A DNA stretch of 47,572 nt from an uncultured Gammaproteobacteria bacterium (GTDB taxonomy: Bacteria; Patescibacteriota; Patescibacteriia; Magasanikbacterales; UBA922), in the NCBI GenBank assembly GCA_964531615.1, contig CAZHEJ010000001.1, forward strand, positions 1-47,572, written 5' to 3'. This document shows, in pieces, positions 5 through 3,154 of this stretch. Position 1 is the first letter of the stretch, and every line of letters begins with the position of its first letter. The notes beneath the pieces are model-generated. The model was not told where the DNA came from, searched no databases, and worked only from the letters and a program-made list of their open reading frames with translations. A program made the translations under genes and the position numbers.

Positions 5-3000
5 ATGAAAAAATATAACCCAGAAACAATTGAGCCGAAATGGCAGAAGTACTGGGAGAAGAATAAGATTTTTGAAGCGAGAGACCCTTCGACTCGCCCT
101 GACGGGCTCGCTCAGGGTTCCTCCTCGCTTGATGCTCGGAGGAAATTTTATGCTCTGATTGAGTTTCCATACCCATCAGGCGCCGGATTGCATGTCGGCC
201 ACCCACGGCCTTTTACCGCCATGGATGTTATAGCGCGCAAGCGCCGGATGCAGGGATTTAATGTGCTTTATCCTATTGGATTTGACGCTTTTGGCTTGCC
301 GACAGAAAATTACGCGATTCAGACAGGCCGTCCGCCGGCAGAAGTTACTGCAGAAAACATCAAAAATTTCACTCGGCAATTGAAAATGCTCGGTTTTAGT
401 TTTGACTGGTCGCGGGCAGTCATTACCAGCGAGCCGGAGTATTACAAATGGACGCAGTGGATATTTTTACAGCTTTTCAAGCATGGGCTGGCTTACAAGG
501 CGAAAGTGCCGATTAATTGGTGTTTATCCTGTAAAATCGGATTGGCAAATGAAGAGGCAGTTGGCGGAGTGTGCGACCGTTGTGGCGGGCCGGTTGAAAA
601 GCGTGAAAAAGAGCAGTGGATGCTAGCCATTACCAAATATGCGGATAAATTATTAGAAGGCCTGAAAGAAGTTGATTATATCCCCCAAGCCAAAATCCAG
701 CAGGAGAATTGGATAGGGAGGTCAGAAGGAGTTGAAGTGGACTTCAGACTACAGACTTCAGACTACAGATTGCGAGTGTTTACGACCAGGCCTGACACTC
801 TCTTCGGCGCGACTTATATGGTGTTGGCGCCAGAACATTCTTTAATTTCAAATTTCAAATTTCAAATTTCAAATTTTTCTGAAGTGGAAAAATATATTGA
901 GCAGTCGAAGAAGAAGTCGGAGATTGAACGAACGGATTTAGCCAAGGAAAAAACAGGCGTGGAATTAAAAGGTTTAAAAGCGATTAACCCAGTAAATAAT
1001 GAAGAAATCCCCATTTTTGTCGCTGATTATGTCTTAATGGGTTATGGCACAGGCGCGATTATGGCTGTACCAGCTCATGATGAAAGGGATTGGGAGTTTG
1101 CGAAGAAATACTCCCTGCCTGTTCGGCAGGTCGTGACTACAGACTACAGACTTCAGACTACAGGCGAGTGTTTTTGTGGTGAGGGTAAAAATATTAACTC
1201 TGATTTTTTAGATGGATTAGAAACTAAAGATGCAAAAGAAAAAATGATTGAGTGGCTGGAGGAGAAAAATTTAGGTAAAAGGCAGGTGCAATACAAGCTC
1301 CGCGACTGGGTTTTTTCCCGCCAGCGCTACTGGGGCGAGCCCATTCCGCTGGTGCATTGCGAAAATTGCAAGAATAAAAAGTATCATTATGTTTTTTTGC
1401 ATGGATATACAGGTGGAGCAAATAAGAATTGGAAACCGTGGTTAAAACAGATTTTGGAAGAGCAAGGAAATACTGTATTTTGTCCGGATTTGCCAAATAC
1501 TGATGAACCAAATATTGATGAACAGGTGCAATATATTTTGGATAATACCAAAATTGATGAAAATACAATTCTAGTCGGGCATAGTCTGGGTGGGGCAGTG
1601 GTGATGAAATTATTGGAAAAATTAAATAAAAAAGTGGCGAAGGTTTTATTTGTTGATTCTGTATTAAGACCAGAATGGCCGGATAAGCCACGGCCGATGG
1701 TGGTAAAAAGCTGTGATTGGAAATTTGATTTTGAAAAAATAAAATCAAAAAGCGATGAATTTATTGTATTGGGTGATGCTGAATTTAAAACTATTTTTGA
1801 AAAAGATTTAAGAGATTTAGCCAATTATCTTGGTGCCAGATTAGTTTTATCACAACCAGAGAATAGGCATTTTACAGCTGATGAGGAGCCAATAATTCTG
1901 CGGTTATTGAATCAGGAAGGCTGGATCCCGCTTCCCGAATCAGAATTGCCGCTTGAACTGCCAAAAGTGAAAAAATACCAGCCAACAGATACAGGCGAGT
2001 CGCCGTTGGCAACAATGGAAAAGTGGGTGAATGTAAAATGCCCGCGCTGTGGCAGTCCAGCAAAACGGGAAACAGATACAATGCCGAATTGGGCAGGGTC
2101 AAGCTGGTACTTTCTTGCGTATACAATGCCAACATCCCCCCAACCCCCCTTTAAAAAAGGGGGTAAACAGAGTGAATTTATTTGGGACAGAGAAAAGATG
2201 GACTATTGGATGCCGGTTGACTGGTATAATGGCGGAATGGAGCACACAGTTTTGCATTTATTGTATTCCAGATTCTGGAATCAGTTTTTGTATGATATTG
2301 GGGTTGTGCCGACAAGAGAACCGTATAAAAAGCGCACTTCTCACGGCATGATTTTGGGCGAGGATGGTGAAAAAATGAGCAAGTCGCGCGGAAATGTGGT
2401 CAATCCTGATGAAATGGTGGAAAAATTCGGCGCTGATGCTTTCCGTTTGTATATAATGTTCATGGGCCCGTTTGACCAGGCAGTGGCGTGGGATACGAAT
2501 GGTTTAGTGGGGGTGAGCAGGTTTTTGGAGAAAGTGTGGAATTTGCAACAATTTGTCATCCCTGCGAAGGCAGGGATCCAGAAATCGTCGGCGATGGATT
2601 CCCGCTTTCGCGGGAATGACAATAAAAAACTTGATACTTTATTACACCAAACAATCAAAAAAGTTACAGAAGATATTGAGTCAATGCGATTTAATACGGC
2701 AATTTCACAGTTGATGATTTTGGTAAATGAAATGGGTAAAGACACGAATCACATATCACATATCACATATCACATATTTCTCAAATTATTATCACCCTTT
2801 GCCCCGCATATAGCTGAAGAATTGTATGAATTGACTGGCGGCAAATCAAATATTTCTTATCAGCCGTGGCCTGAATATGACCCAGAACTAATTAAAGAAG
2901 ACACAATCACTATCGCCGTGCAGGTGAACGGCAAACTGCGCGATACTTTGGAAGTCCCGGCAGATATTTCTGAAGAAGAAGCAAAATCGCGCGCTTTATC

Positions 3001-3088
3001 TTCTGAAAAAATTCAGAAATGGCTCGCTGGCCAAGAGCCGAAGAAAATTATTTATGTGAAGGGGAGGATGGTGTCGATTGTGGTTTAA
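5..3088 (+). CDS. leuS: Leucyl-tRNA synthetase with an embedded alpha/beta serine-hydrolase domain and multiple repeat-derived in-frame inserts
   Basis: 1027-aa ORF. It has a HIGH-type motif (GLHVGHP), KMSKS, and the CP1 editing motifs TTRPDTLFGATY and GTGAIMAVPAHDERD. The Zn knuckles are HCENC and KCPRCG. It is about 200 aa longer than usual bacterial LeuRS. Confidence 0.95.
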   Translation: MKKYNPETIEPKWQKYWEKNKIFEARDPSTRPDGLAQGSSSLDARRKFYALIEFPYPSGAGLHVGHPRPFTAMDVIARKRRMQGFNVLYPIGFDAFGLPTENYAIQTGRPPAEVTAENIKNFTRQLKMLGFSFDWSRAVITSEPEYYKWTQWIFLQLFKHGLAYKAKVPINWCLSCKIGLANEEAVGGVCDRCGGPVEKREKEQWMLAITKYADKLLEGLKEVDYIPQAKIQQENWIGRSEGVEVDFRLQTSDYRLRVFTTRPDTLFGATYMVLAPEHSLISNFKFQISNFSEVEKYIEQSKKKSEIERTDLAKEKTGVELKGLKAINPVNNEEIPIFVADYVLMGYGTGAIMAVPAHDERDWEFAKKYSLPVRQVVTTDYRLQTTGECFCGEGKNINSDFLDGLETKDAKEKMIEWLEEKNLGKRQVQYKLRDWVFSRQRYWGEPIPLVHCENCKNKKYHYVFLHGYTGGANKNWKPWLKQILEEQGNTVFCPDLPNTDEPNIDEQVQYILDNTKIDENTILVGHSLGGAVVMKLLEKLNKKVAKVLFVDSVLRPEWPDKPRPMVVKSCDWKFDFEKIKSKSDEFIVLGDAEFKTIFEKDLRDLANYLGARLVLSQPENRHFTADEEPIILRLLNQEGWIPLPESELPLELPKVKKYQPTDTGESPLATMEKWVNVKCPRCGSPAKRETDTMPNWAGSSWYFLAYTMPTSPQPPFKKGGKQSEFIWDREKMDYWMPVDWYNGGMEHTVLHLLYSRFWNQFLYDIGVVPTREPYKKRTSHGMILGEDGEKMSKSRGNVVNPDEMVEKFGADAFRLYIMFMGPFDQAVAWDTNGLVGVSRFLEKVWNLQQFVIPAKAGIQKSSAMDSRFRGNDNKKLDTLLHQTIKKVTEDIESMRFNTAISQLMILVNEMGKDTNHISHITYHIFLKLLSPFAPHIAEELYELTGGKSNISYQPWPEYDPELIKEDTITIAVQVNGKLRDTLEVPADISEEEAKSRALSSEKIQKWLAGQEPKKIIYVKGRMVSIVV
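83..143 (+). repeat. GC-rich hairpin element in-frame in the leuS N-terminus (encodes PSTRPDGLAQGSSSLDARR)
   Basis: gacccttcgactcgccctgacgggctcgctcagggttcctcctcgcttgatgctcggagg resembles the right half of the 7009-7153 element. It lies between conserved LeuRS N-terminal blocks. Confidence 0.7.
743..780 (+). repeat. Heptamer tandem repeat (TNCAGAC x4) plus shared flank gcgagtgtt, in-frame in leuS
   Basis: ttcagac tacagac ttcagac tacagat tgcgagtgtt. A near-identical copy lies at 1135-1173. Confidence 0.9.
844..878 (+). repeat. Heptamer tandem repeat (AATTTCA x5) in-frame in leuS
   Basis: Direct reading; it encodes ISNFKFQISNF. Confidence 0.92.
1135..1173 (+). repeat. Second copy of the TNCAGAC heptamer block in leuS
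   Basis: gac tacagac tacagac ttcagac tacaggc gagtgttt. Confidence 0.9.
1371..1917 (+). other. Inserted YdeN/RBBP9-like serine hydrolase domain inside leuS (~182 aa)
   Basis: The insert reads YHYVFLHGYTGGANKNWKPWLKQ ... ILVGHSLGG ... VLGDAEF ... NRHFTADEE. The LeuRS flanks VHCENC and GWIPLPESELPLELP are contiguous in ordinary LeuRS. Confidence 0.8.
2136..2163. repeat. Poly-C/poly-G palindrome in leuS (encodes SPQPPFKKGG)
   Basis: ccccccaacccccctttaaaaaaggggg. Confidence 0.85.
2555..2620 (+). repeat. Double-hairpin element, family A, full copy in-frame in leuS (66 nt = 22 codons, VIPAKAGIQKSSAMDSRFRGND)
   Basis: gtcatccctgcgaaggcagggatcc...gattcccgctttcgcgggaatgac. Confidence 0.92.
2743..2777 (+). 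repeat. Heptamer tandem repeat (CACATAT x5) in-frame in leuS (NHISHITYHI)
   Basis: cacgaat cacatat cacatat cacatat cacatat. Confidence 0.92.
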
Positions 3089-3090
3089 TT

Positions 3091-3154
3091 GTCATCCCCG
3101 CGAAGGCGGGGATCTAAAAAACAAAAATAAGATTCCTGCTTTCGCAGGAATGAC
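3091..3154 (+). repeat. Double-hairpin element, family A, intergenic copy (leuS-comEC)
   Basis: gtcatccccgcgaaggcggggatc...gattcctgctttcgcaggaatgac. It ends 7 nt before the comEC ATG. Confidence 0.92.

What the first reader, a model, noticed from the sequence alone, without database searches (positions are those of the whole stretch)
2555..3154. Family A bipartite double-hairpin element: coding and intergenic copies with hairpin-preserving compensatory substitutions
Seen: there are three full copies and one half copy.
- 2555-2620, inside leuS: exactly 66 nt = 22 codons.
- 3091-3154, intergenic.
- 11413-11474, intergenic.
- 13597-13620, half copy in-frame in elp3 on the opposite coding strand (SFPRKRESR).

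The architecture is gtcatCCCCGC-gaag-GCGGGGatc, a variable spacer, then gATTCCCGC-tttc-GCGGGAATgac.

Between copies the stems co-vary. Hairpin 1 is ccctgc/gcaggg in the leuS copy but ccccgc/gcgggg in the others. Hairpin 2 is attcctgc/gcaggaat at 3131-3150 but attcccgc/gcgggaat elsewhere.

Both intergenic copies end a few nt before the next gene. comEC starts 7 nt downstream of one copy. The 11470 ATG is the ATG within the terminal ggaATGac of the other.

Inference: selection acts on the secondary structure, whether DNA cruciform, ssDNA hairpin or RNA. This fits a REP/RPE-like mobile or recombinogenic element that can be domesticated as a terminator/5'-UTR structure or as peptide-coding sequence. 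No cognate transposase (for example a RAYT/IS200-type TnpA) is present in this window.
Basis: partly seen in the sequence, partly recalled or inferred. Interest (0 to 1): 0.66.

Follow-up and report, generated by a model that had tools for sequence, protein, structure and literature searches.

The report
Ssn-nuclease hairpin repeats (NTS/SRM) doublets
The repeated double hairpin is real, but it is a known kind: the NTS/SRM hairpin that small GIY-YIG "Ssn" nucleases recognise on single-stranded DNA, found here as inverted pairs in a candidate-phyla (Patescibacteria) genome, twice inside essential genes.

Summary
There are three 62-66 nt inverted doublets (2555-2620 in leuS, 3091-3154, 11413-11474) and one solo hairpin (13597-13620 in an Elp3-like gene). 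That makes seven hairpins where chance predicts about 0.

The stems co-vary. Across about 123 independent doublets from other genomes, the two variable stem positions are Watson-Crick in 99% of 246 hairpins.

The element is not lineage-specific or new. Each arm is the Neisseria dRS3/NTS repeat, (C/T)GTCATTCCCGCG-MAV-GCGGGAATC. This belongs to the SRM class, which Chenal et al. 2025 showed is bound as a single-stranded DNA hairpin and cut just upstream by Ssn, a ~95-aa GIY-YIG nuclease.

The doublet has the same arm orientation as the published NTS-ssn-NTS cassette, but without the gene. I found it in more than 12 phyla. In Patescibacteria it also occurs next to ssn genes.

The window itself, which is Magasanikbacteria-like, has no ssn and no RAYT. 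The source genome could not be retrieved, so a cognate enzyme there is inferred, not shown.

The REP/RAYT attribution does not.

Modestly new here are the Patescibacteria host, the in-frame leuS and Elp3 copies (like Rickettsia RPEs), and a leuS linker that hosts different GTCAT...ATGAC doublets in relatives.

The parts
2555..2620 (.). Doublet 1: inverted pair of NTS-like hairpins. The left arm is 2555-2578, forward on +. The right arm is 2597-2620, forward on -. It lies in frame in leuS at codons 851-872.
   Evidence: Covariance-model hits at 2552-2582(+) score 46.8 bits and at 2593-2623(-) score 49.4 bits. Most LeuS orthologs lack this segment.
3091..3154 (.). Doublet 2. It fills most of the 72-nt leuS-comEC spacer. 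The right arm carries the compensated T-A inner pair (ATTCCTGC/GCAGGAAT).
   Evidence: Covariance-model hits at 3088-3118(+) score 46.5 bits and at 3127-3157(-) score 41.5 bits. The syntenic relative L242 has a 40-nt spacer without the element.
11413..11474 (.). Doublet 3. It is intergenic, between the NUDIX gene (10969-11355, -) and the EamA transporter gene (11470/11482-12378, +).
   Evidence: Covariance-model hits at 11410-11440(+) score 46.2 bits and at 11447-11477(-) score 49.7 bits.
13594..13621 (-). Solo NTS, forward on the minus strand: TGTCATTCCCGCGAAAGCGGGAATCTAG. It lies in frame in the Elp3-like gene (LSFPRKRESRN).
   Evidence: It has 1 mismatch to the published Neisseria NTS consensus and fits the SRM regex. 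The covariance model scores it 49.5 bits. It sits in a loop that is longer than in the solved Elp3 structure 6IAZ.
5..3088 (+). leuS, the host gene of doublet 1. The insertion lies in the variable linker between RFLEKVW and the anticodon-binding domain.
   Evidence: Pfam hits and ortholog alignment.
3161..4615 (+). comEC (DNA-uptake channel). It starts 7 nt after doublet 2.
   Evidence: Pfam Competence and DUF4131 domains. The N-terminus is conserved with L242 ComEC.
13308..15071 (-). Elp3-like radical-SAM/GNAT gene. It hosts the solo NTS and several hairpins of a second repeat family.

Best explanation
The 'Family A' elements are NTS/SRM repeats, the single-stranded-DNA recognition hairpins of the Ssn family of small GIY-YIG nucleases.

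**Structure.** Each arm is an oriented motif: (C/T)GTCAT, then an 8-bp stem with a 4-nt loop, then ATC(C/T). In the doublets one forward motif sits at the 5' end of each strand. This is the arrangement of the published NTS-ssn-NTS cassette with the gene missing.

**Proposed mechanism.** When the DNA becomes single-stranded (replication, repair, or DNA taken up through ComEC), each arm folds into its own hairpin. An Ssn protein encoded elsewhere in the genome would bind it and nick a few nucleotides 5' of the motif, just outside the doublet on either strand. That would modulate recombination of DNA carrying the repeats. It might also drive spread of the repeats by nuclease-triggered repair or transposition.

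**The copies in this window.** They sit where they are tolerated: two tiny intergenic spacers, a variable LeuS linker and an Elp3 surface loop.

**What is shown and what is inferred.**
- Shown here: sequence identity to NTS/SRM, hairpin covariation, the association with ssn in other genomes including Patescibacteria, and absence of the element from relatives' sites.
- From the literature: ssDNA-only binding and cleavage, and the effect on transformation in Neisseria.
- Inferred: that this genome encodes an Ssn, that it cuts these arms, and that the doublets are or were mobile.
For: - **Exact motif elsewhere.** The right arm is found exactly in 109 IMG/VR stretches with GC 40-70%, including Neisseria-type NIME arrays.
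- **Literature.** PMC11893778 defines NTS = CGTCATTCCCGCGMAVGCGGGAATCYRG and the SRM regex. It shows that SsnA binds the hairpin only as ssDNA and cuts upstream.
- **Fit of the window arms.** They match the NTS with 1, 2, 2, 4, 4, 5 and 5 mismatches. Four of the seven fit the SRM regex, against 0.04 expected.
- **Cassette architecture.** Forward NTS, GIY-YIG ORF, reverse NTS is seen in L024. It is seen in 8 of 9 viral-contig homologs and in 11 of 69 metagenome homologs under a strict pattern. With any NTS-like hairpin within 200 nt, the count is 30 of 69.
- **Patescibacteria.** They encode about 95-aa Ssn-family proteins. In Taylorbacteria locus L329 the ssn gene is directly preceded by a doublet of the same type, with a second doublet and a solo copy nearby.
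- **Covariation.** 243/246 and 244/246 hairpins are Watson-Crick at the two positions the search left free, with both pair types common. In the 89-arm alignment there are 37 double-sided changes, 0 single-sided changes and 1 non-pair.
- **Local hairpin is the conserved unit.** The arms of one doublet differ from each other in about 47% of cases, so each local hairpin is conserved rather than the long inter-arm stem.
Against: - No Ssn/GIY-YIG ORF is present in the 47.5-kb window (tblastn; HMM).
- The source genome could not be retrieved: exact-protein look-ups failed.
- Starting from random NTS sites, a GIY-YIG gene is rarely adjacent (1-2 of 109 and 1 of 120 loci). Most copies must therefore be served in trans, if at all.
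- The left arms (ATCCCC...GGGGAT) differ from the Neisseria NTS at 4-5 positions, and whether any Ssn cuts them is unknown.
- The window doublets have unrelated spacers and no visible target-site duplication. Unit-level transposition is therefore not demonstrated.
Confidence: 0.8

Rival explanations
1. REP/REPIN element mobilised by a RAYT (HUH, IS200/IS605-like TnpA) encoded elsewhere. This is what the first reader proposed.
For: The architecture is REPIN-like: two inverted palindromic units with a short spacer. They can fold either as two hairpins or as one long hairpin of similar energy.
Against: - There is no GTAG/GTGG head; the head here is GTCAT.
- The gene found between or next to these arms in other genomes is a GIY-YIG nuclease, not a RAYT (PMC11893778).
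- No recurrent transposase family turns up among neighbours of 120 loci.
- REP families are normally species-specific, whereas this 24-mer is shared across phyla.
Confidence: 0.04
2. Primarily an RNA-level element: the hairpins act in transcripts as terminators, stabilisers, RNase III sites or small RNAs.
For: - The two intergenic doublets lie in very short spacers and would be co-transcribed.
- Rfam FtrB (Francisella sRNA) and WsnRNA46 (Wolbachia sRNA) give sub-threshold matches on the doublets. The FtrB consensus and its Northern probe contain an NTS-like hairpin, so such repeats can accumulate as RNA.
Against: - No Rfam family reaches its gathering score.
- No T-tract follows the + strand hairpins.
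- Copies occur in ORFs and on both strands.
- G-T/G-U intermediates are almost absent: 4 of 492 pair positions. This fits pairing on both DNA strands better than an RNA read from one strand.
- SsnA does not bind RNA (PMC11893778).
Confidence: 0.08
3. [quoted passage not shown] In Neisseria, dRS3 is the target of IS110/Piv-type transposases of filamentous prophages.
For: dRS3 is a documented integration target in Neisseria (PMC1797815). The right arms fit the dRS3 consensus ATTCCC-N8-GGGAAT.
Against: - There is no recombinase or prophage in the window (and the ORF list).
- No such gene recurs near the doublets in 120 loci.
- This explanation does not account for the oriented flanks or the doublet form.
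- It is not exclusive of the Ssn explanation.
Confidence: 0.06
4. Chance similarity, or an assembly or contamination artefact.
For: None beyond the small number of copies in the window.
Against: - Shuffles give about 0 expected copies.
- The copy in leuS keeps the reading frame of an essential gene.
- The same motif occurs in isolate genomes and in many independent assemblies.
Confidence: 0.01

Closest known systems
NTS / SRM repeats, the targets of Ssn GIY-YIG single-strand nucleases (Chenal et al. 2025, Nat Commun 16:2388, PMC11893778)
   Same: - The core sequence GTCATTCCCGCG-MAV-GCGGGAATC is the same.
- It has the same 8-bp stem and 4-nt loop and the same oriented flanks.
- It is multicopy.
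- The arm orientation matches the NTS-ssn-NTS cassette.
- ssn homologs flanked by these arms exist in many phyla, including Patescibacteria.
   Different: - No ssn gene is in this window.
- The host is a Magasanikbacteria-like Patescibacterium; the word 'Patescibacteria' does not occur in the paper's main text.
- The copies are compact ORF-less inverted doublets, a form the paper does not describe.
- Two of the four sites are in frame inside genes, whereas the paper reports 2% of NTS in genes for N. meningitidis.
- The left arms use a C-G variant of the outer variable pair.
Neisseria dRS3 / NIME (ATTCCC-N8-GGGAAT flanking RS elements; PMC1797815)
   Same: Three right arms match the dRS3 consensus exactly. 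The dRS3-spacer-dRS3 layout is also the same.
   Different: - The spacers are 16-20 nt, at or below the 19-214 nt range of RS elements.
- There are no arrays.
- The left arms (ATCCCC) and the arm at 3132-3151 (ATTCCT) break the strict consensus.
- NIMEs were thought to be Neisseria-specific.
REPIN/REP with RAYT
   Same: It is an inverted doublet of short palindromes that can form one long hairpin. It is presumably served in trans by a single-copy nuclease gene that recognises ssDNA hairpins.
   Different: The enzyme superfamily differs (GIY-YIG rather than HUH/Y1). There is no GTAG head. The sequence is conserved across phyla instead of being species-specific.
Rickettsia palindromic elements (RPEs) and bacterial MITEs (review PMC10969869)
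   Same: These are palindromic repeats inserted in frame into unrelated housekeeping genes, adding a peptide segment in tolerated loops.
   Different: - The element is shorter: 62-66 nt against about 100-150 nt.
- No target-site duplication is seen.
- The internal sequence is not conserved between the window copies.
- The sequence family is different.
Rfam FtrB (RF02748) and WsnRNA46 (RF02625)
   Same: Their consensus contains an NTS-like hairpin. The window doublets match them weakly (26 and 21 bits).
   Different: The matches are far below the gathering scores (66 and 65 bits). Those families describe single transcribed loci in Francisella and Wolbachia, not the repeat class.

Membership tests
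NTS/SRM (Ssn-related motif) | Matches the NTS consensus CGTCATTCCCGCGMAVGCGGGAATCYRG with at most 1 mismatch (the paper's criterion), or the degenerate SRM pattern | tested here: met
   The arm at 13594-13621(-) has 1 mismatch, two arms have 2, and four arms have 4-5. Four of the 7 arms fit the SRM regex, against 0.04 expected in Markov shuffles.
NTS/SRM (Ssn-related motif) | Hairpin-forming semi-palindrome with conserved, non-palindromic flanks that give it an orientation | tested here: met
   The covariance model scores 41-50 bits in the forward orientation and 10-14 bits in reverse. GTC upstream and C27 downstream are conserved in 89 arms.
NTS/SRM (Ssn-related motif) | Spatial association with a cd10448-type single-domain GIY-YIG (ssn) gene | tested here: inconclusive
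   There is none in the window, and the source genome is not retrievable. The feature is met in other genomes, including Patescibacteria L329 and L327, viral contigs and metagenome contigs.
NTS/SRM (Ssn-related motif) | Bound and cleaved by its Ssn only as single-stranded DNA | not testable with these tools
   This needs biochemistry. It is shown for Neisseria and Wolbachia homologs in PMC11893778.
dRS3 / NIME | 20-bp ATTCCC-N8-GGGAAT inverted repeat flanking RS elements of about 19-214 bp, often in arrays | tested here: inconclusive
   Three of 7 arms fit exactly. The spacers are 16-20 nt and there are no arrays. True NIME arrays are seen in L058 and L026.
REP/REPIN-RAYT | GTAG/GTGG head next to the palindrome, and a RAYT gene flanked by REPs | tested here: not met
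   The head is GTCAT. There is no RAYT in the window, and no recurrent transposase near 120 doublets.
MITE | Terminal inverted repeats plus a target-site duplication, and copies sharing internal sequence | tested here: not met
   Terminal inverted repeats are present. No target-site duplication is visible, and the three window spacers are unrelated. Most same-spacer pairs in other genomes also share flanks, so they are the same locus.
RPE-like coding palindromes | In-frame insertion into otherwise conserved protein-coding genes at tolerated positions | tested here: met
   LeuS codons 851-872 are absent from most of 60 orthologs. The Elp3 loop is longer than in 6IAZ. This is a functional resemblance only; the sequence family is not an RPE.

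The most novel reading that the evidence does not exclude
The ORF-less NTS doublet is the non-autonomous form of a pan-bacterial mobile element. Its 'transposase' would be a ~95-aa GIY-YIG ssDNA nuclease (Ssn). It would be able to colonise essential genes in frame in ultra-small Patescibacteria genomes. The same LeuS linker has been occupied repeatedly by different GTCAT...ATGAC doublet families, which implies either a preferred target or repeated replacement.
Probability: 0.3. Interest if true: 0.7.

Novelty: new member of a known kind. Interest (0 to 1): 0.4.

Why it matters
The finding links an anonymous repeat in an uncultured Patescibacterium to a biochemically defined system: Ssn nucleases and their ssDNA hairpins. 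This gives a concrete, testable hypothesis for what the repeat does.

It extends the system's known host range and context in three ways:
- compact inverted doublets in many phyla;
- in-frame copies in leuS and elp3;
- proximity to comEC in organisms that depend on DNA uptake.

If Ssn proves to mobilise such doublets, it would be a new class of minimal mobile element. The near-identity of a 24-nt non-coding motif across phyla would then reflect horizontal spread of nuclease and site together.

It does not by itself reveal a new mechanism.

Tried and rejected
- **Rfam.** The window has only a tRNA at gathering threshold. Near the doublets there are only sub-threshold microRNA, FtrB and WsnRNA46 matches.
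- **Peptide-string literature search.** VIPAKAGI, RFRGND and similar strings found nothing. A DNA-string search then found the key paper.
- **Forward test, from NTS site to neighbouring gene.** GIY-YIG is adjacent in only 1-2 of 109 viral and 1 of 120 genome loci. Unbiased neighbour clustering gave only ORFs that translate the repeat itself. At first this argued against the GIY-YIG lead. The reverse test, from ssn gene to its flanks, was decisive.
- **L137.** Its GIY-YIG ORF is not an Ssn. It is intron-endonuclease-like and sits in a duplicated tRNA half.
- **Retrieving the source genome.** Exact-protein look-up of LeuS and SHMT failed. No fetched locus is a close relative. Copy number and the presence of ssn in the genome therefore could not be measured.
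- **Supplementary tables of the Ssn paper.** They are not held.
- **Cluster-member names.** They added one Zixibacteria label only.
- **Unit-level mobility.** Doublets sharing spacers mostly also share flanks, so they are the same locus or duplicated contigs. Only the L148 pair has different flanks. This was rejected as proof of transposition.
- **Orientation bias.** The consistent orientation of the three window doublets (C-variant arm on the left) is not significant with n=3.

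
Full report

Yes.

- The right-arm 24-mer GATTCCCGCTTTCGCGGGAATGAC occurs three times exactly and twice with 2-3 mismatches, against 0.00 in shuffles.
- The degenerate hairpin ATYCCYGC-N4-GCRGGRAT finds all seven arms without mismatch, against 0.22 expected.
- A covariance model built later from 89 arms gives exactly seven hits of 41-50 bits. Each is strongly strand-specific, and nothing else scores above 13.9 bits.

The leuS copy is 22 codons, in frame (VIPAKAGIQKSSAMDSRFRGND). The Elp3 copy is in frame on the minus strand (LSFPRKRESRN).

The left arm is essentially the reverse complement of the right arm, including TTGTCAT...ATGACAA at the ends. Each unit is therefore an inverted doublet.

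As single-stranded DNA it can fold as two 8-bp hairpins or as one long hairpin of similar energy. Z-scores are -5 to -6 against shuffles.

**2. What genome is this?**

Pfam confirms five genes:
- LeuS, with an alpha/beta-hydrolase domain inserted at aa 463-615;
- ComEC;
- a NUDIX protein;
- an EamA transporter;
- an Elp3-like radical-SAM/GNAT protein.

The closest LeuS proteins are 65-67% identical and are labelled Candidatus Magasanikbacteria or Patescibacteria. GC content is about 41%. The genome itself is not in the look-up collection.

**3. The element is not lineage-specific.**

The exact right-arm 24-mer occurs in 109 IMG/VR stretches with GC from 40% to 70%. Some are 77-nt-period arrays typical of Neisseria.

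A pattern for the short doublet left two stem positions free as Y/R and allowed a 6-36 nt spacer. The hits include:
- Alpha-, Beta- and Gammaproteobacteria, Magnetococcales and Desulfobulbaceae;
- Gemmatimonadota, Chloroflexota and Cyanobacteria;
- Planctomycetota, Bacteroidota and Acidobacteriota;
- Omnitrophota, Poribacteria and a Rickettsiaceae symbiont;
- seven Patescibacteria MAGs.

**4. Identification.**

A full-text search for the DNA string found Chenal et al. 2025 (PMC11893778). The paper reports the following.

- The 20-bp Neisseria dRS3 (ATTCCC-N8-GGGAAT; PMC1797815) is part of a longer oriented motif, the NTS: CGTCATTCCCGCGMAVGCGGGAATCYRG. It is generalised as the SRM pattern.
- The motif is spatially associated across bacteria with ssnA, a small single-domain GIY-YIG gene (cd10448).
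- The purified protein binds the hairpin only as ssDNA, in one orientation, and cuts a few nucleotides upstream. It does not act on dsDNA or RNA.
- In N. meningitidis it lowers transformation by DNA that carries the NTS.
- The NTS-ssnA-NTS layout was noted to look like an insertion sequence.

The window arms match the NTS with 1, 2, 2, 4, 4, 5 and 5 mismatches. Four of the seven fit the SRM regex, where 0.04 are expected.

**5. Independent support from fetched loci.**

Before finding the paper I had noticed that L024 carries a 97-aa GIY-YIG ORF (Pfam PF01541). A forward arm lies upstream and a reverse arm downstream.

Searching with that protein gave the same layout in:
- 8 of 9 viral-contig homologs;
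- 11 of 69 metagenome homologs with a strict pattern, or 30 of 69 with any NTS-like hairpin within 200 nt.

Many low-GC contigs carry it.

A low-GC homolog used as query returned ~95-aa proteins labelled Buchananbacteria, Taylorbacteria, Berkelbacteria, Daviesbacteria and 'Patescibacteria group'.

- In the Taylorbacteria locus L329 the ssn gene is directly preceded by a doublet: GTCATTCCCGCGAAAGCGGGAATC, 22 nt, GATTCCCGCTTTCGCGGGAATGAC. A second doublet and a solo arm lie within 2 kb.
- In L327 the last codons of ssn are the arm itself.

The doublet's arm orientation (forward left, reverse right) is the same as in the cassette. The doublet is therefore formally the cassette without its gene.

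**6. Covariation.**

The genome pattern allowed any Y/R combination at two stem positions, so it gives a fair test.

- Among 246 hairpins from 123 distinct doublets, the outer variable pair is T-A 191, C-G 52, T-G 2 and C-A 1.
- The inner variable pair is C-G 221, T-A 23 and T-G 2.
- On the 89-arm alignment there are 37 double-sided changes, no single-sided ones and one non-pair. No shuffle or slid register reaches this.
- The other six pairs were fixed by the pattern and say nothing either way.

In about 47% of doublets the two arms carry different variants. Pairing is therefore preserved within each arm, not between arms. The window's copy 1 and copy 2 show the same thing. This points to the small local hairpin, which is the form Ssn binds, as the selected structure. 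The near-absence of G-T intermediates fits a DNA-level constraint better than an RNA one.

**7. Context of the window copies.**

*leuS linker.* Most of 60 LeuS orthologs have a short linker between RFL(E/D)(K/R)VW and LLHQTIKKV and lack the 22 residues. Several orthologs instead carry other inserts there that begin VI... and end ...ND. At the DNA level (L240) this is a different doublet, GTCATTGCGAG...CTCGCAATGAC.

*leuS-comEC spacer.* The syntenic relative L242 has a 40-nt leuS-comEC spacer with no element. It carries GTCATTGCGAG-type doublets elsewhere, one of them inside comEC.

*Elp3.* The solo arm lies in a loop that is about 14 residues longer than in the solved structure 6IAZ.

*Coding versus intergenic elsewhere.* Among low-GC loci most doublets are intergenic. 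A few, including L121 (589 aa), L167 (992 aa) and the copy at position 18 of L212 (309 aa), lie in long open frames.

*Terminator function.* No T-tract terminator follows the + strand hairpins.

**8. What is not shown.**

- There is no ssn, RAYT or other transposase in the window.
- Whether the source genome has an Ssn could not be tested.
- The three doublets have unrelated spacers and no visible target duplication.
- Most apparent multi-copy doublets in other genomes turned out to share flanks, so they are the same locus.

Mobility of the doublet as a unit remains an inference.

**9. Verdict.**

The finding is a genuine, well-described instance of a known repeat class: NTS/SRM, the target of Ssn nucleases.

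The REP/RAYT attribution is wrong in enzyme family, although it is close in logic.

The modestly new aspects are:
- the Patescibacteria host;
- the compact doublet form and its very wide distribution;
- the in-frame copies in essential genes;
- the recurrently occupied LeuS linker.

Noticed in passing
window 1391-1849 (LeuS aa 463-615): LeuS carries an inserted alpha/beta-hydrolase (serine hydrolase) domain. The same insertion is seen in Magasanikbacteria-like orthologs, and some of those carry an additional NUDIX domain.
   Followed up: partly
window 2136-2166, 13741-13776, 14438-14516, 32350-32393: There is a second hairpin repeat family, C6-7 / AT-rich loop / G6-7. All checked copies lie in frame in genes: LeuS 'PQPPFKKGG', and Elp3 'PPFTKGG...SPLKKGG' and 'LPLNKGEIKRG'. 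Elp3 aa 183-219 is an insertion relative to the solved Elp3 6IAZ.
   Followed up: partly
L240 2696-2770; L242 5267-5346 and 14211-14291; LeuS orthologs P0001, P0008, P0009, P0015, P0025, P0053: A different doublet family with the same termini (GTCATTGCGAG...CTCGCAATGAC) occupies the same LeuS linker in relatives. In L242 it also lies inside comEC. This suggests a recurrently colonised site.
   Followed up: partly
window ~2749-2776: A short tandem repeat (CACATATC, about 3.5 copies) lies inside leuS and encodes HISHITYHI.
   Followed up: no
L137 1830-2240: In a Moraniibacteria MAG, an 81-aa GIY-YIG ORF sits between a duplicated 5' half of a tRNA gene and the intact tRNA. It gives a weak hit to group I intron endonucleases. 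It looks like an intron or homing-endonuclease insertion, not an Ssn.
   Followed up: partly
window 3068-3185 and 2531-2643; Rfam RF02748, RF02625: The Rfam families FtrB (Francisella sRNA) and WsnRNA46 (Wolbachia sRNA) weakly match the doublets. The FtrB consensus and its published Northern probe contain an NTS-like hairpin, so at least FtrB appears to be built on a transcribed NTS/SRM repeat.
   Followed up: partly
L110, L118, L152, L211, L227, L229: A polynucleotide phosphorylase (pnp) gene lies within 1.5 kb of the doublet in 6 of 120 phylogenetically scattered loci. This is more than expected for one gene family, and it is unexplained.
   Followed up: no
window 3185-3215: A strong terminator-like hairpin with a T-run lies inside the conserved N-terminal coding region of comEC, 30 nt after doublet 2.
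   Followed up: no
L327 3001-3303: In a Patescibacteria contig the ssn gene sits between dnaK and dnaJ. Its last codons (GFPLSRE*) are themselves the reverse NTS arm.
   Followed up: no
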